64,000 nt of DNA from an archaeon BMS3Abin17. GTDB lineage: Archaea; Nanobdellota; Nanobdellia; Pacearchaeales; GW2011-AR1. Below are positions 19,424 through 28,403 of this stretch, piece by piece. The notes below the pieces were generated by a model. It ran no database searches and had not been told where the DNA came from. It saw nothing but the letters and a program-made list of their open reading frames with translations. The position numbers and the translations under genes are program-made. The DNA lies in the NCBI GenBank assembly GCA_002897655.1, contig BDTJ01000038.1, positions 66,689 through 130,688 on the forward strand, given 5' to 3'. Position 1 is the stretch's first letter. Every line of letters starts with the position of its first letter.

Positions 19424-20101
19424 ATGAAAATCATGACAAAGAAATCAAAAAGCATTTACACACCTTCTGTAATAATAGAAGGATTTTGGGAGATTCCAGG
19501 AGTTAATTATAAAGGCAAAAATAAAACTTACAGGATTTTTGAAAAAATGGCTCCTGCAATGAATCATGATGATTTAACAGAGTATTCTATTAAAGAAAAG
19601 AAAGAAGGAAATCCTCATCTAGCAGATTCTATTTTACATTTTTCTATTTTTGATGCATCTTATAAACTTAGAAATAAGCACTCACAAGATATTGAAGGGC
19701 TTAGAAAATTTCTTCAATCAAGCCTTAGGAAATATCCAAATACTTCTACAAGAGTAGTTTATAATCCTCAAGAAGAATTAGATAACATAATTCATAATTA
19801 TGGAACTCCTGATGAATACATTTTAAGAGGAAATTTTGTTGGAGATGATGGTTGGATTAGAAACATAAAGCATAAAAAAGTTTTAACATCTCTTTTAGGG
19901 ACAGATAATATTAAAAAAATAAATGAAATTTCTCAATGGTTAACTAACACTAATACTTATCTTTGGAGATTAAATTCAAAACCACTACAAAAAGACGAGG
20001 GAGTTGTCGGGTTCGGCGCCTATTCCCTCAGGCTTAGCCTCTACTGCGACAGGTTTCCCGCTAATTGGTGTCCTGCTTTTCGGGTATTAGAAGTTAAATA
20101 A
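19424..20101 (+). CDS. Hypothetical protein (3-prime end may be spurious, overlaps GC-rich repeat copy 1)
   Basis: 225 aa ORF, no recognisable domain; last ~30 codons lie in a GC-rich segment repeated non-codingly downstream. Confidence 0.35.
   Translation: MKIMTKKSKSIYTPSVIIEGFWEIPGVNYKGKNKTYRIFEKMAPAMNHDDLTEYSIKEKKEGNPHLADSILHFSIFDASYKLRNKHSQDIEGLRKFLQSSLRKYPNTSTRVVYNPQEELDNIIHNYGTPDEYILRGNFVGDDGWIRNIKHKKVLTSLLGTDNIKKINEISQWLTNTNTYLWRLNSKPLQKDEGVVGFGAYSLRLSLYCDRFPANWCPAFRVLEVK
20003..20090. repeat. GC-rich 88-nt element, copy 1 (candidate structured RNA / element boundary)
   Basis: ~55% GC in a ~30% GC genome; ~80% identical to 20588-20675. Confidence 0.5.
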
Positions 20102-20587
20102 GCTTGAAGTTTTGCTCGCCGGCAGAAAATTATAAAAGATTTCTGGATTTAAGGGAACTGCAAGATAAATTCCACAATTTAGTATTTGACGCTTGTAAAT
20201 TTTGGGTGGTTGTTATAAGTAATTAATTAAGGAACAATTAGTGAAAGGGTGTTCGCTCTAAGATATTAAGAGTTAATAGATTACAATAATCTCGGAGATA
20301 AGTAAGGCAGTAATTATCTTCTAAAATTAGCTTAACATCAACACAAAAAAATTTAAATGAGTTTTTCTTGTTATTCTTGCTCAAAAAGTTTTCTTCCTTG
20401 AGCAAGAAGGAAACTAGATGGATTACACGCCATTTAACTAGCACATTATTAAGATTTATTTTAAGTCATGAAATTCAACCCCGACAATTAGTAGTTGAAA
20501 AATTATGAAAATTGAAGGAGTGGTGCTTCCTTTGAAGAAATTCACTGACTAGGAGACTCCCTATAGGAGAAGTTAATTGGCTATAAG

Positions 20588-20675
20588 TTGTCAGGTTCAA
20601 CGCCAATTCCAACAGGCTTAACCTCAACTGCAACAGGAATCCCGCTAATAGGTATCCTGCTTTTCGAATAGTCTA
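20588..20675. repeat. GC-rich 88-nt element, copy 2
   Basis: Direct imperfect repeat of 20003-20090; intergenic. Confidence 0.5.
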
Positions 20676-20701
20676 TCTGGGCATTTTTATAAGAAGAATT
20701 A

Positions 20702-21430
20702 TTATTTACAGCTCTTCATAGGCTGTTTTTTCCACTTATTCTTGATTTTTCTCTCAATACACTCGACTTTTCCGTCTTTGAGTTTGTATATTATTTTTGC
20801 GTGTTTTCTTGCTAATTCCGGATCATGAGTAACTATAATTATTGTTTTCCCTTTTTTGTTCAGGTTATCCAAAAATTTCATTACATTCTCACCAGTCTTT
20901 GTATCAAGATTTCCTGTAGGCTCATCTGCTAAGATAACTTCAGGATTATTTGAAAGGGCTCTTGCAATAGCAACTTTTTGCTGTTGCCCTCCTGAAAGCT
21001 GATTAGGATAATGATCCATTCTGTCTTTTAAATCAACAAGTTTGAGCAACTCTTCTGCCCTTTCTCTTCTCTCTTCTTCTGAAATTTCCTGAAACAGCAT
21101 AGGAAGCATAATATTCTCTTTTGCAGTAAGATTAGGAATTAGATTAAACTGCTGAAAAATAAAACCAACTTTCTTACCTCTTATCTGGGCTAAATCAGAT
21201 TCACTCAAATCCTTTATATCCTGCCCACCAAGATAAATATCTCCTTTTGTAGATAAGTCAAGACTTCCAATAAGATTCATCCCAGTTGACTTTCCACTAC
21301 CACTAGGCCCCATTATAGCAATAAAATCTCCTTCTTCTATTGAGATATTAACACCATCAAGTGCCTTGATTGTCTCTTCTCCCATCTCATAGTATTTTGC
21401 TGCATTTTTCAGTTCAATTATATTCTTCAT
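20702..21430 (-). CDS. ABC transporter ATP-binding protein (MacB/LolD-type)
   Basis: 242 aa; Walker [10 protein letters not shown], signature [15 protein letters not shown], Walker B ILADEPT, H-loop. Confidence 0.85.
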
Positions 21431-21587
21431 AAAATTAAGCTATGCCCTTTATATTTAAATCTAACTAATAACCAATAGCAAGTTTTAAAAAATAAACAAA
21501 AGGTTTAAAAAACACTTTCAATCTCTATAATATAAGTAAATTTAGATTAATTAATATAGTTAATAGGAGCTTAAAATCATTATACCG

Positions 21588-21773
21588 GTGCGTTGTTTCA
21601 GTTGCGGAAAACCAATTGGCCACTTGTGGGAAGAATTCAAGAAAAGAAGAGACTCAGGAGAAAATATCCAAAAACTTTTAGAGGAATATGGGTTAGAGAG
21701 ATATTGCTGCAGAGCAGTTTTTCTAGGACAACAGGACTTAATCAAGCTTGTTGGAAGATTCAAAAAATCTTAA
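21588..21773 (+). CDS. rpoN: RNA polymerase subunit Rpo10 (RpoN)
   Basis: 61 aa; RCFSCGKPIGHLWEEF...RYCCRAVFLGQQDLI matches RpoN/RPB10 zinc bundle; GTG start in track, in-frame upstream codons ATC ATT ATA CCG would restore the canonical IIPVRCF N-terminus. Confidence 0.8.
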   Translation: MRCFSCGKPIGHLWEEFKKRRDSGENIQKLLEEYGLERYCCRAVFLGQQDLIKLVGRFKKS

Positions 21774-22027
21774 TTAACCTTCCATTTTGAAATATAATCA
21801 CACTTGCTGCAGGTTACTGACTTTATATTGCTCTTGATTCTTATTTTTGGTTTATCATAAGGAGTCAGGCATTTCTTGCAGAATTTTTTCCTCAAATCCT
21901 TTAATTGTATGCTGTTTTTCATTGCAAGTTTTTTTATTTTTTTAACTTGTTTTGGCGTTTTATTTTTTATATCAGAGAAAAAATCACTTATTTGTTTCTG
22001 AGCTTCTGTTTTTGATAGTTTTTTCAT
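21770..22027 (-). CDS. RNase P protein subunit Rpp21/Rpr2-like (zinc ribbon)
   Basis: 85 aa; ...RKKFCKKCLTPYDKPKIRIKSNIKSVTCSKCDYISKWKV resembles Rpr2 C-x2-C...C-x2-C zinc ribbon. Confidence 0.5.
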   Translation of the reverse strand: MKKLSKTEAQKQISDFFSDIKNKTPKQVKKIKKLAMKNSIQLKDLRKKFCKKCLTPYDKPKIRIKSNIKSVTCSKCDYISKWKVN

Positions 22028-22188
22028 CTTTTCTTTTTTAATTGTATCCTACCTTTCTTTATTTCAGTTTTTAATTCATCTCCTTCTTTAAAACCAGCAC
22101 CTTTAATATCTTTTTCGGGAAGAACTATTATGTATTTGTGATATTCTTTATCTTTATATTTTCTTGATAATCTTTTTTGAATTTTCAT
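22024..22188 (-). CDS. AbrB/SpoVT-like swapped-hairpin small DNA-binding protein (unannotated sORF, 54 aa)
   Basis: Hand translation MKIQKRLSRKYKDKEYHKYIIVLPEKDIKGAGFKEGDELKTEIKKGRIQLKKKR; stop overlaps Rpp21-like start (ATGA). Confidence 0.4.
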   Translation of the reverse strand: MKIQKRLSRKYKDKEYHKYIIVLPEKDIKGAGFKEGDELKTEIKKGRIQLKKKR

Positions 22189-22264
22189 GTAATTACGTGT
22201 TAAACATTATTTATAAGTTTTTAGGAGCCGAAAAGTTTATATAGTTTAGGAGCCTAAATATATT

Positions 22265-22960
22265 ATGAATTATGAAGAAATCTTAAAAAATGAAAAGAAG
22301 TCTAAAATTCTAGTAAGAATAGTTGCCCATTTAATGGGAGATGGTTGCGTGACAAAAAGATATTTTGCTTATTACAATAAAGATAAAATTTTATTAGAAA
22401 ATTTTGAAAAAGATGTTCTTAATCTTTTTAAGAAGATTCATTTCACTCGTGGCAGGACTAATTCTGGAACAAGTTTTTTAATGATACAAAACAAACCATT
22501 ACTCAATTTCTTAAAATCATTAATCAGTGATTATAGAAGCCATCATTTATATCTCCCTAAATTTATTAAGAATAAAGAATTTCAAAAAGAGTTCTCACAA
22601 TCATTTTATGATGACGAAGGATGTGTCGCTTTAAGGATTTTTAAGAAGACTAAGGAGACTAAGGAGACTAAGGAGATTAAGAGAAATGTAACCTTATCAT
22701 CTAATTCGTTAAAACTAATACAAGAGATTAAACAAATATTAAAAAACACTTTTGAAATAGAGTCAAATAAAATATCTAAATATGTCAAGAAAAGAGATTC
22801 AAAGATATATATCAATTATGTTTTATCTATTACCGGAAGAGATAATTTTGTAAAATTTAGAGATAAAATCAATTTTACCCACCCAACCAAAAGTAGAACG
22901 TTAGATAAGATGATTGCTTCATATATTAGAATAGTAAAGTTTAAAAATAAAGATAAATAG
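22265..22960 (+). CDS. Free-standing double-motif LAGLIDADG homing endonuclease-like protein
   Basis: 231 aa; motif 1 AHLMGDGCV, motif 2 FYDDEGCVAL; KETKETKETKEIK linker encoded by tandem 9-nt repeat. Confidence 0.7.
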   Translation: MNYEEILKNEKKSKILVRIVAHLMGDGCVTKRYFAYYNKDKILLENFEKDVLNLFKKIHFTRGRTNSGTSFLMIQNKPLLNFLKSLISDYRSHHLYLPKFIKNKEFQKEFSQSFYDDEGCVALRIFKKTKETKETKEIKRNVTLSSNSLKLIQEIKQILKNTFEIESNKISKYVKKRDSKIYINYVLSITGRDNFVKFRDKINFTHPTKSRTLDKMIASYIRIVKFKNKDK

Positions 22961-22968
22961 ATATCTTT

Positions 22969-23083
22969 GAAGACGGCCATAGTAGTTAGGAAACACCTGT
23001 TCCCATTCCGAACACAGATAGTTAAGCTAATTACGTCGTTTGTATTAGTGCCCTACAAGGTGCGAAGCATCGATGCTGTCTTT
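22969..23083 (+). rRNA. 5S ribosomal RNA
   Basis: Contains CCCATTCCGAACACAG and GTTAAGC motifs of archaeal 5S; helix I AGACGGC/GCTGTCT; ends approximate. Confidence 0.8.
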
Positions 23084-23230
23084 CACTTTTTCCTTTTTAA
23101 ATCTTGCTGCCTAATTTTTATTCTTATATAATGAATAATAATGCTTAAAAATAGAATTTAGATGATTTTAATAGGGCAGGAGTAATCAGTGACAAGTCTT
23201 TCGGGATTTACACTGGCTTGTTCTGCCTTT

Positions 23231-24235
23231 TTATTCTATATTCATATATTCTATAAGTTCTTCTTTAGTTGTGGTGGCTGTTCCAGCCTTTCCAACAACA
23301 ACTCCTGAAGCATAATTTGCTAATTCAATTGCTTGAATTGGGTCTACTCCACTAGCCACACCTAAAACATATGCTGCTGCAGAAGTATCTCCAGCTCCTG
23401 TCTCATCTTTCACTTCCTTTGCTCTTGTTGGAATTAATTTGTGAATATCTTTATCTCTGTCATAGAAAAAAGCACCATCCTTCCCACAAGTTATTACTAC
23501 ATATTTTGAATTAATCTTCTCAGATAAGATGCAACCCATTTTGTAAAGTGTATCCGGCCCATTACTATATTCTATTCCACTCATTTTTTCTGCTTCATGT
23601 TTATTTGGGCAAATAATTGTGCAATTTTTAAAATGATTTAAATTTTTTGGTTTTATATCTGCTAATGTTTTAATCCCTTTAGAATTTGCATGATGGATTA
23701 TATCATATGCAAGGCCACTTCCAAATATATATTTATCATAATCAGAAAATATAATAAAATCATAATCTTCCATCTCTTTTTTAACAGAATCTATAATATT
23801 ATTTTTTAATTCATCATTTATTTTATTTAACTTTTTCTTTTCACTATTTATTCTGCAGACTTGTTGTCTGTGTGCCATTATCCTCTCTTTCACAATTGTT
23901 GGTTCATCATTATAATATGCTTTAAAGTTTATACCCCTTTCTTCACAAATTTTTTTAATCCTTTTTCCATACCCATCTTCCCTTTTTTCACTGTTTACAC
24001 CTAAAATTCCATATAAACAACATTTTGCTCCAAGAGACACTATATTATTTGCAACATTTCCAGCCCCTCCAAGCGCATATGTTTCTTCTATTGAATCTAC
24101 ATTGGGTGCTACAGGTTGTTCAGGATTTATTTTATTGACTTCACACCATCTAAAATAATCCAACATAATATCTCCAATAACTAATATTTTTTTATCTTTA
24201 AAACCATCAAGAATTTTTATCACTTCTTTTATCAT
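23231..24235 (-). CDS. PfkB-family carbohydrate kinase, RfaE/HldE domain-I-like (heptose-7-phosphate kinase-like)
   Basis: 334 aa; KILVIGDIMLDYF...NPEQPVAPNV resembles RfaE kinase N-terminus; C-terminal PfkB motif DETGAGDTSAAAYVLG. Confidence 0.6.
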   Translation of the reverse strand: MIKEVIKILDGFKDKKILVIGDIMLDYFRWCEVNKINPEQPVAPNVDSIEETYALGGAGNVANNIVSLGAKCCLYGILGVNSEKREDGYGKRIKKICEERGINFKAYYNDEPTIVKERIMAHRQQVCRINSEKKKLNKINDELKNNIIDSVKKEMEDYDFIIFSDYDKYIFGSGLAYDIIHHANSKGIKTLADIKPKNLNHFKNCTIICPNKHEAEKMSGIEYSNGPDTLYKMGCILSEKINSKYVVITCGKDGAFFYDRDKDIHKLIPTRAKEVKDETGAGDTSAAAYVLGVASGVDPIQAIELANYASGVVVGKAGTATTTKEELIEYMNIE

Positions 24236-24289
24236 AAAAGGAGATATTTTTTTGTTTTATAAGTTTTATTTAGGAAGAATATAGATTAT

Positions 24290-24372
24290 GCGGAAGAAAG
24301 GATTCGAACCCTCGTAAGCACTAAGCTAACACGCCCTTAACGTGTCCCGTTTGACCACTCCGGCACTTCCGC
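24290..24372 (-). tRNA. tRNA-Leu, apparent anticodon AAG (type II)
   Basis: Hand fold: acceptor GCGGAAG/CTTCCGC, anticodon stem ACACG/CGTGT with loop TTAAGGG, long variable arm, T arm GAGGG-TTCGAAT-CCTTT; paralog of tRNA at 10439. Confidence 0.65.
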
Positions 24373-24404
24373 GTAATTCCTAAACCTAATTTATATTTAA
24401 AAAA

Positions 24405-24704
24405 CTATAGAAAACTAAACAATCCTTTCTGTATGATTAAAATACCTACTATAATGCCTATTATTGAGGGGATTGATACTACTGTGAGCAGAATAAATAT
24501 CCCGCCTGTTATGAAATCAATCCAGCTTGCAAAGTCTTTTAGCAATCCAAGAGAGGCCTTGGTCAAAAGAATAATTCCTAATATTAGAAAAACCTTGCTA
24601 GAAAGACTGGCTCTCAATATTAAGATTAATCCTGCAATTATATCAATTATCCCAAATGCTTTCAATAACATCATTTTTAAATAAACCGTACATTTAAAAA
24701 ACAT
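24405..24704 (-). CDS. Small integral membrane protein, hypothetical
   Basis: 99 aa, 3 predicted TM helices; annotated start abuts tRNA-Arg, true start may be internal Met. Confidence 0.3.
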   Translation of the reverse strand: MFFKCTVYLKMMLLKAFGIIDIIAGLILILRASLSSKVFLILGIILLTKASLGLLKDFASWIDFITGGIFILLTVVSIPSIIGIIVGILIIQKGLFSFL

Positions 24705-24831
24705 GCGCTTGTAGCTCAGTTGGATTAGAGCGCGTCCCTCCTAACTTCAAGAACGCAAGTTCTTGGGGTGCTCACGATTGCAGAGCAATAGAGACAGGAC
24801 GAAGTCGTAGGTTCAAGTCCTACCAAGCGCG
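24705..24831 (+). tRNA. tRNA-Arg (anticodon CCU) with ~52-nt intron at canonical 37/38 position
   Basis: Hand fold: acceptor GCGCTTG/CAAGCGC, D arm GCTC-AGTTGGATTA-GAGC, anticodon stem CGTCC/GGACG, loop CTCCTA|intron|A, T arm GTAGG-TTCAAGT-CCTAC; followed by T7 run. Confidence 0.75.
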
Positions 24832-24840
24832 TTTTTTTAA
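24832..24840 (+). terminator. Oligo-T archaeal-type terminator after tRNA-Arg
   Basis: gttttttt immediately 3-prime of discriminator base. Confidence 0.4.
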
Positions 24841-24922
24841 GGAAATAAGATTTAAATTATAATTTAGTATAGTGGTAGTAATAAATAGGAAGATTTATAA
24901 TTCTTCTATTCTTTAATTCATT

Positions 24923-25765
24923 ATGCCTATTTTTATAAAACTAAAAGATAATGATAGGATTAAGTTATTTAGGTCAATAAAAGAAAAAATAAATATTTCT
25001 TGGGATAGTTTTTATCCTTCATTAGGTATAAGACGTTCCATGTTTTTCCATTATTTATCTGGAAAACATAATTTACCTCAAAAATTATTTTTTAAACTAG
25101 AAAGAATAGCAAGATTAAAGATAAGTAATTATGGAGAGGTCAAGCAAGTTAAATATGTAAAAAAAGAAATCAGAGAACCTAAAATGGATATATTTCTTGC
25201 TGAAATTCTTGGAGTACTTAATGGGGATGGGCATATTTCTAATTTTAAATATGAAGTCTGTGTGGTTGGAGATATTAAAGAAAAGAAATATAGTAATTAT
25301 TTGAAGAAACTATTTGAAAAAACATTCGGGATTTCATTTACAATTTATAAAGGAAAATCTTATTTTAAACTTAGAAATTATTCAAAAGAGATTTCCTGTC
25401 TTCTAACTAAAAAATATAATTTGCCAAAAGGAAATAAGATTGGAAAATTAAGAATTCCAAAACAAGTATTAAAATCAAACAATTTACTTATAGCTTATAT
25501 TAGAGGGTTATATGATACCGATGGAAGTTTTTATATAAGAAGGAAGAAAGAACCAGTGGTTCAAATAACAAGTGCAGATTCTTTATTTTTAAGTGAAATT
25601 AGAGATGCTTTAATCTCCTTGAATTTTAATGCAGTCAAGGGAAATCAAAGAATTTTTATATATACAAAAAATCACATTGATAACTTTTTCAAAATCATAA
25701 GACCCGCAAACTCCAAACATTTAAAAAAGTATCAAAATTACCTTAAATTAAGTAAGCGTGGGTAG
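24923..25765 (+). CDS. Free-standing double-motif LAGLIDADG homing endonuclease-like protein with N-terminal extension
   Basis: 280 aa; motif 1 ILGVLNGDGHIS, motif 2 IRGLYDTDGSFYI; ~90 aa N-terminal region of unknown (possibly DNA-binding) function. Confidence 0.7.
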   Translation: MPIFIKLKDNDRIKLFRSIKEKINISWDSFYPSLGIRRSMFFHYLSGKHNLPQKLFFKLERIARLKISNYGEVKQVKYVKKEIREPKMDIFLAEILGVLNGDGHISNFKYEVCVVGDIKEKKYSNYLKKLFEKTFGISFTIYKGKSYFKLRNYSKEISCLLTKKYNLPKGNKIGKLRIPKQVLKSNNLLIAYIRGLYDTDGSFYIRRKKEPVVQITSADSLFLSEIRDALISLNFNAVKGNQRIFIYTKNHIDNFFKIIRPANSKHLKKYQNYLKLSKRG

Positions 25766-25852
25766 GTCAATGGCAGACTCCGAGCCTTCCATAATCTTTT
25801 AGAATCTTCTTGAAGAGAGCTCGTTATCCGGGTTCGAATCCCGGCCGGCGCA
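25756..25852 (+). tRNA. Probable tRNA-Gly (anticodon UCC) with ~26-nt intron at 37/38
   Basis: Hand fold: T arm CCGGG-TTCGAAT-CCCGG and acceptor 3-prime CCGGCGC clear; 5-prime GCGTGGG pairs with one G-G mismatch and one G-U; D arm GGTC/GACT; anticodon stem CGAGC/GCTCG perfect; loop CTTCCA|intron|A; overlaps last 10 nt of LAGLIDADG ORF. Confidence 0.45.
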
Positions 25853-25864
25853 TTTTAAAGAAAA

Positions 25865-26764
25865 ATGCAACAAGAAAACAAAACAGAATCAGGAAAGAAC
25901 TGGCATGACAAGTATTACATGATGTTATTATTAATACCCCTCTTACTTTTGGCTTTCTCCCTTGTTTATCTGTATAATTTTTATCAGGTTAATGATAAAA
26001 ATATAATGTATAAGGATGTATCTCTAACAGGTGGAACAGCTGTAACAATCTATGAAAAGATTAATATTGATGATTTAGAATCTTCCCTTTCAGATAAACT
26101 TGAAGAAATGAATATAAGGGAAGTTTATGATTTGGTAACTAAAGAGCAAAAAGCAGTTATTATTGAGACTAAAACAAAGGGAAATGAAGCAAAACAAATC
26201 TTAGAAGAGTATCTTGGTTATGAGCTGGTTGCAGGTGAAAATAGCGATTTTGAGTTTACAGGCTCAACACTTAGTGAGAATTTCTATAAACAGCTTTTAA
26301 TTTCAATTTTATTTGCTTTTGTTTTTATGGCAATTGTTGTTTTTATTCTCTTTAGAACAATTGTGCCTTCTAGTGCAGTTATTCTCTCTGCTTTTGCAGA
26401 TATTGTAATGACTCTTGCACTTGTGAATATTTTAGGCATGAAGATGTCAAGCGCCGGAATTGTGGCATTTTTAATGTTAATTGGTTATTCTGTTGATACA
26501 GATATCTTGCTTACCACGAGGGTTCTTAAAAGACAAGAGGGTTCTTTAAATGAAAGAATTTTCGGAGCATTTAAAACAGGGTTAACAATGACCTTAACCT
26601 CTTTATTGGCTATAATTTTTGCATTATTTGTTGTAAAATCTTTTTCAATTGTTTTAACACAGATTTTTACAATTCTTGCAATAGGACTAGGATTTGATAT
26701 TTTTAATACCTGGATAACCAATGTTTCAATACTTAAATGGTATATGGAGAAAAAAACACAATGA
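25865..26764 (+). CDS. secF: Protein-export membrane protein SecF (archaeal)
   Basis: 299 aa; N-terminal TM, periplasmic domain, C-terminal 5-TM bundle with GYSVDTDILL motif of the SecD/SecF family; precedes secD. Confidence 0.75.
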   Translation: MQQENKTESGKNWHDKYYMMLLLIPLLLLAFSLVYLYNFYQVNDKNIMYKDVSLTGGTAVTIYEKINIDDLESSLSDKLEEMNIREVYDLVTKEQKAVIIETKTKGNEAKQILEEYLGYELVAGENSDFEFTGSTLSENFYKQLLISILFAFVFMAIVVFILFRTIVPSSAVILSAFADIVMTLALVNILGMKMSSAGIVAFLMLIGYSVDTDILLTTRVLKRQEGSLNERIFGAFKTGLTMTLTSLLAIIFALFVVKSFSIVLTQIFTILAIGLGFDIFNTWITNVSILKWYMEKKTQ

Positions 26765-26876
26765 AAATCATAGATTTTCAAGCACTAAAAAATCAGAGAT
26801 TTTTGGTGCCCCAAAATTCCAGAAGAATTTTTAGGGCATTTAAATCACAGAATAAATTGGAAGAAATTTAAACACA

Positions 26877-28403
26877 ATGAAACTAAAATTTACCTTCAAA
26901 ATCTGGATATTAATTATTGTATTGGCTTTTTCATTATTAGCAATTTTTGGGATGCCCCCAACATTTATTAAATCAGGGGTTTTAATTACAAGTATTGATT
27001 CTAATTCAACTGCATTTGAGCAGGGATTAAGACAGGGGCAGATAATCACAGAAATTGATGGGCAGAAGATAATTAGTTTAGAAGATTTTTCAAATGCACT
27101 TCAGGGAAAATACGATTCTAACGAGAGTGTAAAGACAATAATTAAAACAGAAAACTCAGGGGTAATTCTTTTTTCTGACCAGCCACCCGAAATAACTGTA
27201 TCAGAGATTCCTAAGACTCAGATTAATCTTGGTTTAGATTTGTCAGGGGGGGCAAGAGCATTAGTTCAGGCAAAAGACAAAAAACTTTCTTCAGCAGAGA
27301 TTAATGATCTGGTTGATATAACAAGCAACAGACTTAATGAGTTTGGGCTTACAGACCTGAAAGTTCTTCCTGTTTCAGATTTAGGCGGAGAACATTATAT
27401 GTTAATTGAGATTGCAGGAGCCACTCCAAAAGCTTTGGAAGAAATGATATCTAAGCAGGGAAAATTTGAGGCAAAAATTGGAAATGACACTGTATTTATT
27501 GGGGGAGAAAGGGATATAGCATCTGTTTGCAGGGGAGATGCAACATGTTCAAGAGTGGAAAGACCTGTCCAAATAGAAGGGGGATATGCTTCCAGGTTTC
27601 TTTTTAGCATAACCTTAAGTGCAGAAGCCGCACAAAGACACGCAGATATAACAAACAATCTAACTTTAAGTCTGAATAACTCAGAATATTTATCAAAAAA
27701 ACTAGACTTATATCTTGATGATAATCTTGTAGACAGCCTCTTTATTGGAAAAGGTCTTAAGGGAAGAATAACAACTCAGATTCAGATTTCAGGGTCTGGA
27801 ACAGGTGAAACAGGTGAGGACGCAGTAGGTGCTGCACAAGAATCAATGCATAAATTACAAACAATTCTTATAACAGGAAGTCTTCCTTATCAGCTTGAGA
27901 TTGTTAAACTAGACACTATATCTCCAATATTAGGTGATGAGTTTATAAAATCTATATTTATGGCAGGTATTGCCGCACTTCTTGCTGTCTCTATAGTAAT
28001 CTTTATCAGATACAAGAAGTTCAAGTCTTCGCTTGCATTATTAATCACAAGCATCTCTGAGATCATTATAATCTTAGGAGTTGCGTCTTTTATAAGATGG
28101 GATTTAGATTTGCCAAGTATAGCAGGGATTCTGGCAACAATTGGGACAGGTATAGACCAGCAGATTATCATACTTGATGAGGCAAGACAAGACAAGTATT
28201 TGAGTATAAAACAAAGAATGAAAAGAGCATTTGCTATTATTTTAGGAGCATATTTCACAGCTCTTGTGGCGTTAATTCCACTGTATTGGGCAGGAGCAGG
28301 TTTATTAAAAGGATTTGCTGTGACAACTATTATCGGAATTACTGCAGGTGTTTTAATTACAAGACCTGCTTTCACAGACATGGTAAAGAAGATTGAGGAT
28401 TAA
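26877..28403 (+). CDS. secD: Protein-export membrane protein SecD (archaeal)
   Basis: 508 aa; hallmark [14 protein letters not shown] motif, large extracytoplasmic domain, C-terminal 6 TM. Confidence 0.8.

What the first reader, a model, noticed from the sequence alone, without database searches (positions are those of the whole stretch)
22024..25852. Two free-standing double-motif LAGLIDADG endonuclease genes in the 5S-rRNA / intron-containing tRNA cluster
ORF 22265..22960 ends 8 nt before the 5S rRNA. ORF 24923..25765 starts 90 nt after the intron-containing tRNA-Arg, and its last 10 nt overlap the 5-prime end of an intron-containing tRNA-Gly. Both carry two LAGLIDADG motifs (LMGDG/YDDEG and LNGDG/YDTDGS), so they are single-chain endonucleases. 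The second has a ~90-aa N-terminal extension. Archaeal LAGLIDADG enzymes are normally encoded inside rRNA/tRNA introns or inteins. Free-standing copies flanking RNA genes suggest either mobilised homing endonucleases or domesticated RNA-processing factors.
Basis: partly seen in the sequence, partly recalled or inferred. Interest (0 to 1): 0.5.

Follow-up and report, generated by a model that had tools for sequence, protein, structure and literature searches.

The report
Selfish endonuclease genes beside RNA genes
Two complete LAGLIDADG endonuclease genes in this Pacearchaeota genome are optional, selfish insertions that always sit against the same RNA genes (5S rRNA and tRNA-Gly), so they are a new flavour of a known kind of mobile gene, not new host machinery.

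Summary
ORF1 (22265-22960) and ORF2 (24923-25765) are intact double-motif LAGLIDADG proteins. ORF1 ends 8 nt before the 5S rRNA. ORF2 overlaps the 5' end of tRNA-Gly(TCC) by 10 nt.

Each belongs to a family of about 85-105 full-length relatives in Pace-, Woese- and Nanoarchaeota, and the catalytic Asp/Glu are conserved. Family 1 abuts the 5S gene in all 21 relatives with readable flanks. Family 2 runs into tRNA-Gly(TCC) in every locus examined.

Neither is a core gene. In 120 related 5S loci with the same gene order, family 1 occupies 5 of 69 assessable sites and family 2 occupies 3 of 50. Empty sites have short spacers. Three copies are disrupted, and family 1 similarity disagrees with the flanking SecD.

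Two further LAGLIDADG families sit just 5' of tRNA-Arg and tRNA-Leu in relatives.

The best reading is free-standing homing endonuclease genes that spread by intergenic ("intronless") homing. Their coding ends carry the neighbour's apparent promoter or terminator. In Pacearchaeota, family 1 travels with a small AbrB/MazE-like gene and conserved operator-like repeats.

Cleavage and target sites are inferred, not shown. This is a new variant of a known kind, of moderate interest.

The parts
21770..22027 (-). Host gene on the far side of the family 1 insertion: an 85-aa zinc-ribbon protein with weak similarity to RNase P Rpr2/Rpp21.
   Evidence: The Pfam Rpr2 hit is below threshold, E = 0.0023. 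In empty-site relatives this gene starts typically about 42 nt (range 12-104 nt) after the 5S 3' end on the same strand. In occupied sites its ATG overlaps the stop of the AbrB-like gene.
22024..22188 (-). 54-aa AbrB/MazE (SpoVT-AbrB)-like gene, divergent from ORF1. It is the second gene of the family 1 cassette in Pacearchaeota.
   Evidence: The Pfam MazE_antitoxin hit is below the gathering score, E = 8.7e-4. The gene is present next to family 1 in window, L001, L003-L007, L135, L156 and L166. It is absent from L002 and from every family 1-less locus. More distant homologues occur elsewhere without family 1.
22210..22254 (.). Divergent promoter/operator region. It holds a TATA-like box for the AbrB-like gene (22210-22217, read on the minus strand) and a TATA-like box for ORF1 (22236-22243, 29 nt before the ATG). 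Two copies of TTTAGGAGCC (22220-22229 and 22245-22254) flank the ORF1 box.
   Evidence: Sequence read. The same architecture, TTTAGGNNCC-GAAAG-TTTATATAG-TTTAGGNNCC, is conserved in all 10 cassettes that have the AbrB-like gene. It is absent in L002, which lacks that gene. Function is inferred.
22265..22960 (+). Family 1 free-standing LAGLIDADG endonuclease gene (231 aa; motif 1 LMGDG with D26, motif 2 YDDEG with E118).
   Evidence: Pfam LAGLIDADG_3. There are 84 relatives, mostly 208-231 aa, at 39-68% identity, with invariant GDG and DDEG. AlphaFold2 pLDDT is 92.1. Best fold matches are intein endonuclease domains, I-Tsp061I and I-DmoI. GC is 25.4% against 31.1% for the window.
22647..22680 (+). 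In-frame 9-nt tandem repeat (three copies, encoding KETKETKE) inside ORF1. It forms a loop insertion after the second LAGLIDADG helix.
   Evidence: Sequence read. The insertion is absent from all 30 aligned relatives, and model confidence drops to 66-70 there.
22940..22949 (+). TATA-like box (TTTAAAAATA) inside the last codons of ORF1, 29 nt upstream of the 5S start. It is the presumed 5S promoter.
   Evidence: Sequence read. The other co-directional loci (L002, L004, L005) have a comparable A/T box between the ORF end and 5S. Inferred, not tested.
22969..23084 (+). 5S rRNA gene, the anchor of family 1.
   Evidence: Rfam RF00001, 69.4 bits. A 5S gene lies 0-34 nt from, or overlaps, the family 1 stop codon in 21 of 21 relatives with readable flanks.
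24705..24831 (+). tRNA-Arg(CCT) with an intron. It is the usual upstream neighbour of the family 2 insertion site, but not its anchor.
   Evidence: Rfam tRNA, 54.3 bits; ARAGORN. In L141 and L163, family 2 has a different upstream neighbour.
24894..24901 (+). TATA-like box 29 nt before the ORF2 ATG, suggesting ORF2 has its own promoter and a leaderless mRNA.
   Evidence: Sequence read. Inferred.
24923..25765 (+). Family 2 free-standing LAGLIDADG endonuclease gene (280 aa). It has an N-terminal helical, HTH-like domain (aa 1 to about 75) and a double LAGLIDADG core (LNGDG with D102, YDTDGS with D200).
   Evidence: Pfam LAGLIDADG_3. There are 107 relatives, nearly all 262-310 aa, at 39-74% identity, with a conserved N-terminal domain and catalytic residues. 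AlphaFold2 pLDDT is 93.9. Fold matches are the TliVMA intein endonuclease domain, I-Tsp061I, I-AniI and I-DmoI. The N-terminal domain matches no Pfam family.
25715..25729 (+). AAACATTTAAAAAAG, which encodes K-H-L-K-K near the ORF2 C-terminus, about 36 nt upstream of tRNA-Gly. It resembles the BRE/TATA element (AAACTTTAAAA) that precedes tRNA-Gly in empty sites.
   Evidence: Comparison of 40 nt upstream of tRNA-Gly(TCC) across all the tRNA-Gly(TCC) genes found in the fetched loci. Dual use as codons and promoter is inferred.
25756..25852 (+). tRNA-Gly(TCC) with a 26-nt intron, the anchor of family 2. Its first 10 nt are the last codons and the TAG stop of ORF2.
   Evidence: Rfam tRNA, 45.6 bits; ARAGORN. 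Family 2 ORFs abut or overlap the 5' end of tRNA-Gly(TCC) in window, L045, L049/L100, L141 and L163. In L047 the abutting tRNA is miscalled by ARAGORN but reads CCTTCCA in the anticodon loop and has the same terminal acceptor-stem sequence.

Best explanation
Both ORFs are free-standing LAGLIDADG homing endonuclease genes from two distinct families. They are selfish elements, not host factors.

Each family occupies one fixed intergenic site in a conserved Pacearchaeota gene cluster: RpoN - Rpr2-like - 5S - tRNA-Leu - tRNA-Arg(CCT) - tRNA-Gly(TCC) - SecF - SecD.
- Family 1 fills the spacer at the 3' end of the 5S gene.
- Family 2 fills the spacer immediately 5' of tRNA-Gly(TCC).

Proposed mechanism (inferred). 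The monomeric enzyme cuts the uninterrupted spacer/RNA-gene junction in a genome that lacks the gene. Repair from an occupied copy then copies the gene in, using the conserved RNA gene and the flanking host gene as homology arms (intronless homing). The insertion splits the target, so the carrier is immune.

The insertion appears to cost the host little, because the ORF ends seem to carry the neighbour's signals:
- The family 1 stop region, read on the other strand, is the T-rich stretch after 5S. When 5S is co-directional, as in this window, an A/T box in the last codons sits 29 nt before 5S.
- The family 2 C-terminal codons contain a BRE/TATA-like element for tRNA-Gly, and the ORF borrows its stop codon from tRNA positions 8-10.

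In Pacearchaeota, family 1 travels with a divergently transcribed 54-aa AbrB/MazE-like gene. That gene's stop overlaps the start of the displaced host gene. Two conserved TTTAGGNNCC repeats flank the endonuclease's TATA box. I infer that the small protein represses the endonuclease and restores expression of the downstream host gene.

Shown: anatomy, fold, residue conservation, site specificity, presence/absence, disrupted copies. Inferred: cleavage, target, homing, regulation.
For: Fold and active site.
- Both proteins hit Pfam LAGLIDADG_3.
- The models are high-confidence, pLDDT 93.9 and 92.1.
- Best matches are archaeal intein and intron homing endonucleases at Foldseek E = 1e-9 to 1e-11.
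- The catalytic D/E of both motifs are invariant or nearly so in each family.

Site specificity.
- A 5S gene lies within 34 nt of, or overlaps, the family 1 stop in 21 of 21 loci, at 37-67% protein identity.
- Family 2 abuts tRNA-Gly(TCC) in every locus examined, even when the upstream neighbour differs.

Optional presence.
- 120 loci were fetched with a 5S DNA pattern, independent of the endonuclease genes. Nearly all share the window's gene order.
- Family 1 is present in 5 of 69 assessable loci and family 2 in 3 of 50.
- Three of the four presence/absence combinations occur (both present, or either one alone): both present in window and L156; family 1 only in L001 and L007; family 2 only in L045, L047 and L049.

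Empty versus occupied sites.
- L166 and L139 are 82% identical in nucleotides. Their homology stops at the 5S 3' end and resumes at the Rpr2-like ATG.
- The family 2 cassette lies in the tRNA-Arg/tRNA-Gly spacer.

Decay. Disrupted copies occur in L018/L152, L156 and L079.

Horizontal movement. Family 1 identities disagree with SecD. L006 is closer to the window group in family 1 but farther in SecD than L007 and L018 are.

Composition. The cassette genes are 24-25% GC against 31% for the window.

The same habit in other families. Two further LAGLIDADG families sit just 5' of tRNA-Arg (L002, L004, L079) and tRNA-Leu (L104, L124).

Cassette partner. The AbrB-like gene co-occurs only with family 1 in these clusters, and the operator-like repeats are conserved with it.
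Against: - No cleavage, target site or homing event has been observed; everything about activity is inferred.
- Family 2 identities roughly track SecD identities. This fits long vertical descent with many losses as well as it fits repeated homing.
- No remnants were found in long tRNA-Arg/tRNA-Gly spacers, and no copies in viral contigs that could act as vectors.
- Uniform length and strong conservation across about 100 relatives are also what a selected host gene would show.
- How DNA passes between cells of these archaea, which homing needs, is unknown.
Confidence: 0.78

Rival explanations
1. Domesticated host factors. The LAGLIDADG proteins were recruited as DNA- or RNA-binding proteins that help transcribe or process the neighbouring 5S rRNA and tRNA. 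The analogues are the LAGLIDADG-derived regulator WhiA and intron maturases.
For: Linkage to the same RNA gene is very tight across 37-67% protein identity. Lengths are uniform and conservation is strong in about 100 relatives of each family. Some database entries are labelled WhiA. WhiA and the bI3 maturase are among the fold matches of ORF2. Family 2 identity roughly tracks SecD.
Against: About 93% of syntenic relatives lack each gene and have short intact spacers. Disrupted copies exist. The catalytic acidic residues are retained, whereas from background knowledge, not tested here, WhiA has lost them. Family 1 is linked to 5S on either strand, which argues against co-transcription. Top fold matches are active homing endonucleases.
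Confidence: 0.08
2. Inert relics. The genes are leftovers of formerly intron- or intein-encoded endonucleases, or of a larger integrated element, and no longer move.
For: The closest solved relatives are intein- and intron-encoded enzymes. NCBIfam gives only a weak match to an intein-containing RtcB. LAGLIDADG genes in rRNA group I introns are known in these phyla (PMC6125680). tRNA genes are common integration sites for larger elements.
Against: There is no Hint/intein domain and there are no extein flanks. No group I intron or other RNA family surrounds the ORFs. The neighbouring 5S and tRNAs are complete. The insert is only about 0.9 kb with no integrase, and it sits at the 5' side of the tRNA. 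Intact ORFs with conserved catalytic residues in about 100 diverged relatives imply continuing selection for the endonuclease, not decay.
Confidence: 0.07
3. Addiction module. In the family 1 cassette the endonuclease is a toxin and the AbrB/MazE-like protein its antitoxin or repressor. The pair would then persist by post-segregational killing as well as, or instead of, homing.
For: There is a weak MazE_antitoxin match. The small gene co-occurs with family 1 in 10 of 11 Pacearchaeota cassettes where the upstream flank is available, and in no family 1-less cluster. Operator-like repeats around the endonuclease TATA box are conserved. More distant homologues lie in toxin-antitoxin or defence-rich regions.
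Against: Woesearchaeota family 1 genes and L002 lack the small gene, so it is not needed for persistence. Family 2 has no such partner. The Pfam match is below threshold. No interaction or toxicity data exist.
Confidence: 0.07

Closest known systems
Archaeal intron-encoded LAGLIDADG homing endonucleases I-DmoI and I-Tsp061I (rRNA introns of Thermoproteales)
   Same: They share the monomeric two-domain LAGLIDADG fold, with TM-scores of 0.65-0.72 normalised to the target. They have one acidic catalytic residue at the end of each LAGLIDADG helix, an archaeal host, and an association with stable-RNA genes.
   Different: Those enzymes are encoded inside rRNA introns and target the intron insertion site within the rRNA gene. 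These two are encoded outside the RNA gene, in the flanking spacer, with their own promoters. Sequence identity is only 14-19%.
Intein homing-endonuclease domains (PI-PfuI, TliVMA intein, PI-SceI)
   Same: They are the best sequence and fold matches: 7qsu at E = 2.6e-4 by sequence, and 1e-9 to 4e-11 by fold. They belong to the same Pfam family, LAGLIDADG_3.
   Different: These proteins have no Hint splicing domain and no host protein around them. They are stand-alone proteins.
Free-standing homing endonucleases of T4-like phages (Seg and Mob proteins, 'intronless homing'; reviewed in PMC2988022, and mobE in PMC2790892) and F-CphI of cyanophage S-PM2 (PMC6083498)
   Same: The gene lies between conserved genes and not in an intron or intein. 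Distribution among otherwise collinear genomes is sporadic. The proposed spread is by cutting the gene-less allele nearby and co-converting the flanks.
   Different: Those are GIY-YIG, HNH or Endo VII-type enzymes in phage genomes, spread during co-infection. These are LAGLIDADG enzymes in cellular archaeal chromosomes. They sit against structural-RNA genes, with coding ends that overlap the RNA gene or its signals.
LAGLIDADG genes in group I introns of DPANN rRNA genes (PMC6125680) and in rRNA insertions of CPR bacteria (PMC11270868)
   Same: They involve the same host lineages (Pace- and Woesearchaeota) or their bacterial counterparts, the same enzyme superfamily, and stable-RNA genes as targets.
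   Different: All 39 archaeal introns in that study lie inside 16S or 23S genes, and no insertion was found in any CPR 5S gene. Here the genes are outside 5S and tRNA genes, and no intron RNA is detected.
WhiA (bacterial LAGLIDADG-derived transcription factor)
   Same: It has a double LAGLIDADG scaffold joined to a helix-turn-helix-type domain. It appears among the fold matches and in some database labels.
   Different: From background knowledge, not tested here, WhiA has its HTH at the C-terminus, has lost the catalytic residues, and is a conserved core gene. Family 2 has its extra domain at the N-terminus, keeps D102 and D200, and is present in only about 6% of related loci.

Membership tests
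LAGLIDADG homing endonuclease superfamily (single-chain type) | Two alpha-beta-beta-alpha-beta-beta-alpha domains in one chain, packed through the two LAGLIDADG helices | tested here: met
   AlphaFold2 models have pLDDT 93.9 and 92.1 with the expected order of helices and strands. Foldseek probability is 1.00 to I-DmoI, I-Tsp061I, PI-PfuI and I-AniI. Both proteins score above the Pfam LAGLIDADG_3 threshold.
LAGLIDADG homing endonuclease superfamily (single-chain type) | An acidic residue (Asp or Glu) at the C-terminal end of each LAGLIDADG helix for metal binding | tested here: met
   ORF1 has D26 (LMGDG) and E118 (YDDEG), invariant in 31 sequences. ORF2 has D102 (LNGDG), invariant, and D200 (YDTDG), conserved in at least 90% of 36 sequences, with one Glu and one DTDS variant.
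LAGLIDADG homing endonuclease superfamily (single-chain type) | Site-specific cleavage of a long (about 18-22 bp) DNA target | not testable with these tools
   This needs purified protein and substrate. Candidate substrates are the empty-site junctions defined.
Mobile (homing) genetic element | The same insertion site in homologous loci of different genomes, with occupied and empty alleles | tested here: met
   Family 1 lies at the 5S boundary in 21 of 21 loci but in only 5 of 69 unbiased 5S loci. Family 2 lies at tRNA-Gly(TCC) in every carrier examined but in only 3 of 50 loci.
Mobile (homing) genetic element | Signs of the invasion-decay-loss cycle (disrupted copies) | tested here: met
   Family 1 is interrupted in L018/L152 and carries an in-frame stop in L156. 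The tRNA-Arg-linked family is frameshifted in L079. Sequencing error cannot be excluded for single contigs.
Mobile (homing) genetic element | A gene phylogeny that disagrees with the host phylogeny (horizontal transfer) | tested here: inconclusive
   Only pairwise identities were compared. Family 1 disagrees with SecD for L006 against L007 and L018. Family 2 roughly tracks SecD. There are too few taxa, and no trees were built.
Free-standing homing endonuclease (intronless homing) | Encoded outside any intron or intein, between host genes, with its own expression signals | tested here: met
   There is no Hint domain and no intron RNA family within 20000-27000 at E <= 1. The flanking 5S and tRNAs are complete. 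TATA-like boxes lie 29 nt before each ATG.
Free-standing homing endonuclease (intronless homing) | Cuts the gene-less allele near the insertion point, while the carrier allele is resistant | not testable with these tools
   This is inferred only. The insertion replaces the spacer next to the RNA gene, which would split a target spanning that junction.
   Both ORFs begin with Met after a stop codon and are flanked by RNA genes or a divergent small gene. Alignments show that all relatives start at the same Met.
WhiA-like domesticated LAGLIDADG regulator | Loss of catalytic residues and presence as a conserved core gene | tested here: not met
   The catalytic residues are conserved, and the gene is present in only about 6-7% of syntenic loci.
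AbrB/MazE (SpoVT-AbrB) DNA-binding fold, for the 54-aa partner gene | A significant match to the swapped-hairpin barrel domain | tested here: inconclusive
   The Pfam MazE_antitoxin hit has E = 8.7e-4 and 19.6 bits against a cutoff of 24.7. Four of 21 homologues carry a precomputed PF04014 hit. No structure was predicted.

The most novel reading that the evidence does not exclude
The ultra-small archaea (Pace- and Woesearchaeota), and apparently also CPR bacteria, may host a guild of free-standing LAGLIDADG homing endonucleases that specialise on the boundaries of structural-RNA genes instead of their interiors. The sites seen are the 5S 3' end, the 5' ends of tRNA-Gly, tRNA-Arg and tRNA-Leu, and a position downstream of tRNA-Lys in CPR. 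These genes would write the RNA gene's promoter or terminator into their own coding ends. At least one lineage would carry its own AbrB/MazE-like repressor or antitoxin with dedicated operators, making a regulated or addictive two-gene homing cassette.
Probability: 0.3. Interest if true: 0.6.

Novelty: new variant of a known kind. Interest (0 to 1): 0.45.

Why it matters
If confirmed, this extends intronless homing from phages and organelles to the chromosomes of DPANN archaea. It also shows a third way for LAGLIDADG genes to exploit conserved RNA genes: beside them, as well as in introns and in inteins.

It would have practical uses:
- It explains why gene callers report LAGLIDADG ORFs that overlap tRNA and 5S genes in these genomes.
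- It gives a marker of DNA exchange between cells of organisms that cannot be cultured.
- It supplies several families of compact monomeric meganucleases, each with a predictable natural target (the empty junction in relatives), which can be tested directly.

The AbrB-like partner and its operator-like repeats would be an unusual case of a homing endonuclease carrying its own regulator.

Tried and rejected
- **Core-gene hypothesis.** The uniform, well-conserved families and the conserved gene order first suggested domesticated genes. The unbiased 5S sample rejected this.
- **Co-transcription of ORF1 with 5S.** Rejected, because 5S is on the opposite strand in 17 of 21 loci.
- **Does the endonuclease cause the 5S inversions?** 5S is co-directional in 4 of 13 family 1 Pacearchaeota loci, against 14 of 94 flipped in family 1-less loci. 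Fisher p = 0.23, not significant.
- **Decayed family 2 remnants.** None found by tblastn in ten long (250-1700 nt) spacers upstream of tRNA-Gly.
- **Viral vectors.** No family 1 relatives in IMG/VR, and only distant (36% or less, partial) family 2 relatives.
- **Defence-system and phage-family libraries.** Nothing meaningful. NCBIfam gave only a weak match to an intein-containing RtcB.
- **N-terminal domain of ORF2.** No Pfam match even at E = 10.
- **Sequence search of the PDB.** Only a weak intein match; the T4 Dam hits are compositional.
- **Intron-encoded counterparts among distant relatives.** The CPR relatives lie on contigs with no rRNA hit and sit near tRNA-Lys instead.
- **Literature.** No description of LAGLIDADG genes linked to 5S or tRNA flanks in DPANN was found.
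- **Reverse transcriptase near the RT-16 RNA hit.** None within about 6 kb.

Full report
**1.

The window contains two intact ORFs at the stated coordinates: 22265..22960(+), 231 aa, and 24923..25765(+), 280 aa. Both pass the Pfam LAGLIDADG_3 threshold, with E = 2.2e-10 and 2.6e-11.

Rfam finds three RNA genes in the right places:
- 5S rRNA at 22969..23084(+), 8 nt after the ORF1 stop.
- An intron-containing tRNA at 24705..24831(+), 91 nt before ORF2.
- An intron-containing tRNA at 25756..25852(+), overlapping the last 10 nt of ORF2.

No intron RNA family or other structured RNA surrounds the ORFs at E <= 1. No other LAGLIDADG ORF occurs in the 64 kb. Source names attached to identical database proteins place the window in a Pacearchaeota archaeon, "archaeon BMS3Abin17".

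**2. The proteins look like working single-chain LAGLIDADG enzymes.**

ORF2 has 107 relatives, nearly all 262-310 aa, at 39-74% identity. ORF1 has 84 relatives, mostly 208-231 aa, at 39-68% identity. All are from Pace-, Woese- and Nanoarchaeota-type sources.

In family 1, the GDG of motif 1 (D26) and the DDEG of motif 2 (E118) are invariant in 31 sequences. In family 2, D102 is invariant and D200 is conserved in at least 90% of 36 sequences. The roughly 90-aa N-terminal extension is conserved too.

AlphaFold2 gives confident models, pLDDT 93.9 and 92.1. Foldseek against the PDB returns, at probability 1.00, the TliVMA and PI-PfuI intein endonuclease domains, the archaeal intron enzymes I-Tsp061I and I-DmoI, and I-AniI.

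In the model, the ORF2 extension is a separate bundle of four helices with a short beta pair. I read it as helix-turn-helix-like, but it matches no Pfam family.

There is no Hint domain, and all relatives start at the same methionine. So these are not intein fragments.

**3. Each family is welded to one RNA gene.**

A scan of one genome per species with the family 1 alignment gave 22 orthologous loci, L001-L022, at 37-67% identity. L012 duplicates L011, and L022 ends at the contig edge. In every locus with readable downstream sequence, 21 of 21 counting the window, a 5S gene directly follows the stop codon.

The strand varies:
- In 17 loci, 5S is on the opposite strand. Its 3' end is 0-7 nt from the stop codon or overlaps it, by up to 13 nt in L019 and L020.
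- In the window, L002, L004 and L005, 5S is co-directional, 8-34 nt downstream.

Linkage to the gene boundary on either strand argues against co-transcription as the reason.

Family 2 was followed through three database relatives on long contigs and through the metagenome sample. In window, L045, L047, L049/L100, L141 and L163, the ORF abuts or overlaps the 5' end of tRNA-Gly(TCC). This holds even where the upstream neighbour is not tRNA-Arg, or where the ORF-tRNA unit is inverted.

The variable C-terminal tails of the family (KRG, KRR, ALVV, APLV and others) are translations of the tRNA acceptor stem. The stop codon is often U8-A9-G10 of the tRNA.

**4. Both genes are optional insertions in a conserved neighbourhood.**

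Pacearchaeota share the following order:

ABC ATPase - RpoN - Rpr2-like - 5S - tRNA-Leu - tRNA-Arg(CCT) - tRNA-Gly(TCC) - SecF - SecD.

To sample this locus without reference to the endonucleases, I scanned metagenome contigs with a degenerate 5S pattern. It returned 120 loci, L051-L170, nearly all with this gene order.
- Family 1 lies next to 5S in 5 of 69 loci with enough flank: L085, L135, L152, L156, L166.
- Family 2 lies next to tRNA-Gly in 3 of 50: L100, L141, L163. A partial copy sits at the contig end of L156.

Three of the four presence/absence combinations are seen (both genes present, or either one alone):

| Loci | Family 1 | Family 2 |
|---|---|---|
| window, L156 | present | present |
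| L001, L007 | present | absent |
| L045, L047, L049 | absent | present |

Empty sites are short. The 5S to Rpr2-like spacer is typically 42 nt, and the tRNA-Arg to tRNA-Gly spacer is commonly 36-80 nt.

Occupied and empty alleles were compared directly:
- L166 (occupied) and L139 (empty) are 82% identical in nucleotides. Their homology runs through 5S, possibly about 17 nt beyond, and resumes exactly at the Rpr2-like ATG. About 870 nt replace the spacer.
- The family 2 cassette likewise lies in the tRNA-Arg/tRNA-Gly spacer: L045 against L146, and window against L001.

Three copies are disrupted: family 1 in L018/L152 and L156, and a tRNA-Arg-linked gene in L079.

Pairwise identities of family 1 disagree with SecD. 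The L006 gene is closer to the window group than those of L007 and L018 are, while its SecD is farther. Family 2 roughly tracks SecD.

The cassette genes are 24-25% GC against 31% for the window and 36% for SecD.

Taken together, these results are the signature of homing elements, not of host factors.

**5. The same habit appears in other families.**

In L002, L004 and L079, a third LAGLIDADG family (330-341 aa, with an N-terminal extension resembling that of family 2) ends just 5' of tRNA-Arg(CCT). In L104 and L124, a fourth family (250-267 aa) ends at or inside the 5' end of tRNA-Leu(CAA). All keep the GDG and DTDG motifs.

The distant relatives of family 1 in CPR bacteria (25-30% identity) are not in rRNA genes. 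In 11 of 13 such loci they lie 226-320 nt downstream of a complete tRNA-Lys(TTT).

**6. How the insertions appear to spare the host (inferred from sequence).**

Each ORF has a TATA-like box 29 nt before its ATG, which suggests leaderless mRNAs.

Family 1:
- In the convergent arrangement, the conserved last codons (SYIRK-stop, tct tac ata aga aaa tga) read on the 5S strand as TCATTTTCTTAT.
- That is a T-rich stretch immediately after the 5S 3' end, like the T-rich stretch in empty sites.
- In the co-directional arrangement of the window, the ORF reads through TTTAAAAATA (22940-22949), 29 nt before 5S.

Family 2:
- The C-terminal K-H-L-K-K is encoded by AAACATTTAAAAAAG, about 36 nt before tRNA-Gly.
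- This resembles the AAACTTTAAAA element at the same distance in empty sites.
- The K/R-H-x-x-K motif is also present in the other families, where it is not at promoter distance. It is therefore primarily a protein motif, and the double use is a hypothesis.

**7. Family 1 is a two-gene cassette in Pacearchaeota.**

The 54-aa gene at 22024..22188(-) has a sub-threshold match to MazE/AbrB.
- It lies divergently upstream of family 1 in window, L001, L003-L007, L135, L156 and L166.
- It is missing from L002 and from the Woesearchaeota loci.
- It never appears in the family 1-less clusters.
- Its stop overlaps the ATG of the displaced Rpr2-like gene.

The intergenic region has a fixed layout: a TATA box for the small gene, then TTTAGGNNCC, GAAAG, the endonuclease TATA box, and a second TTTAGGNNCC. 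This layout is conserved in all ten cassettes and absent in L002.

I infer that the small protein binds these repeats, restrains the endonuclease, and drives the host gene downstream.

More distant homologues (57-65% identity) occur elsewhere without family 1, some in toxin-antitoxin-rich regions. So a toxin-antitoxin-like reading cannot be excluded.

**8. Comparison with what is known.**

By fold and motifs these are members of the LAGLIDADG superfamily, closest to archaeal intein and intron enzymes.

By lifestyle they match the free-standing homing endonucleases of T4-like phages and cyanophage S-PM2 (PMC2988022, PMC2790892, PMC6083498). They differ in three ways:
- the enzyme family is different;
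- they sit in cellular archaeal chromosomes;
- they are placed against structural-RNA genes.

LAGLIDADG genes in these phyla have been described inside group I introns of 16S and 23S genes (PMC6125680). In CPR bacteria they have been described in rRNA insertions, with none in 5S (PMC11270868).

I found no report of the 5S- or tRNA-flank association. That library does not hold most subscription journals.

**9. Verdict.**

The "mobilised homing endonuclease" reading is well supported by comparative evidence, and the "domesticated factor" reading is not. Cleavage, target and regulation remain untested.

This is a new variant of a known kind. It is of moderate interest, mainly for three things: the strict RNA-gene-boundary targeting by several families, the coding ends that appear to double as RNA-gene signals, and the AbrB-like partner.

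Noticed in passing
window 20381-20589 (+): There is a strong Rfam match to RT-16 RNA (RF03019): 90.3 bits against a gathering score of 50, covering the full model. It lies between a 225-aa ORF of unknown function and the ABC ATPase gene. The family name suggests an association with reverse transcriptases, but no reverse transcriptase ORF lies within about 6 kb. The RNA was not found in the syntenic locus L001.
   Followed up: partly
L026, L028, L030, L033-L035, L037-L039, L042 (CPR bacteria): Distant relatives of ORF1 (25-30% identity) in Saccharibacteria, Kaiserbacteria, Nealsonbacteria and Paceibacterota each lie 226-320 nt downstream of a complete tRNA-Lys(TTT) on the same strand. The six of these contigs scanned with Rfam carry no rRNA hit. 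This suggests tRNA-linked free-standing LAGLIDADG genes in CPR bacteria too.
   Followed up: partly
L002 8480-9505, L004 4966-5958, L079 2178-3172; L104 120-872, L124 2196-2999: Two further LAGLIDADG families occur in the same RNA-gene cluster. One (330-341 aa, long N-terminal extension) ends just 5' of tRNA-Arg(CCT). The other (250-267 aa) ends at or inside the 5' end of tRNA-Leu(CAA). The L079 copy is frameshifted.
   Followed up: partly
window 22647-22680 (+): ORF1 carries an in-frame 9-nt tandem repeat in three copies (KETKETKE) that none of its 30 aligned relatives has. It forms a low-confidence loop after the second LAGLIDADG helix.
   Followed up: partly
5S genes in window, L002, L004, L005 and about 14 of 94 family 1-less loci (e.g. 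L111, L116, L128, L098, L113): The 5S transcription unit is inverted in place, relative to the conserved neighbourhood, in a minority of genomes both with and without family 1. The association with family 1 is not significant (Fisher p = 0.23). Because helix I makes the two 5S ends inverted repeats, the end next to the ORF reads about GA(A/G)GAC(A/G)GC in both orientations.
   Followed up: partly
L008-L017, L021 (Woesearchaeota), about 145 nt after the family 1 stop: The 5S genes next to family 1 in Woesearchaeota are about 144 nt long. Most fall below Rfam's gathering score; only L010 was reported, at 44.6 bits. nhmmer found only their 5' halves. Standard annotation may miss these 5S genes.
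   Followed up: no
window 24405-24704 (-) and 24705 (+): A conserved 99-aa membrane-protein ORF starts on the minus strand at the base directly adjacent to the 5' end of tRNA-Arg on the plus strand. The two promoters must therefore lie inside each other's genes. The same pair is 2-10 nt apart in L001 and L054.
   Followed up: no
L011 and L012: Two records labelled as different organisms (Candidatus Nanoarchaeia and Candidatus Portnoybacteria, a bacterium) gave identical matches and identical 5S hit coordinates relative to the family 1 gene. The bacterial bin probably contains an archaeal contig.
   Followed up: no
L171-L175: More distant homologues (57-65% identity) of the 54-aa AbrB-like protein occur without any LAGLIDADG gene. 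Some lie in regions rich in toxin-antitoxin and restriction genes. One (L175) is divergent from a 281-aa ORF with no Pfam match, beside RpoN and SecDF.
   Followed up: partly
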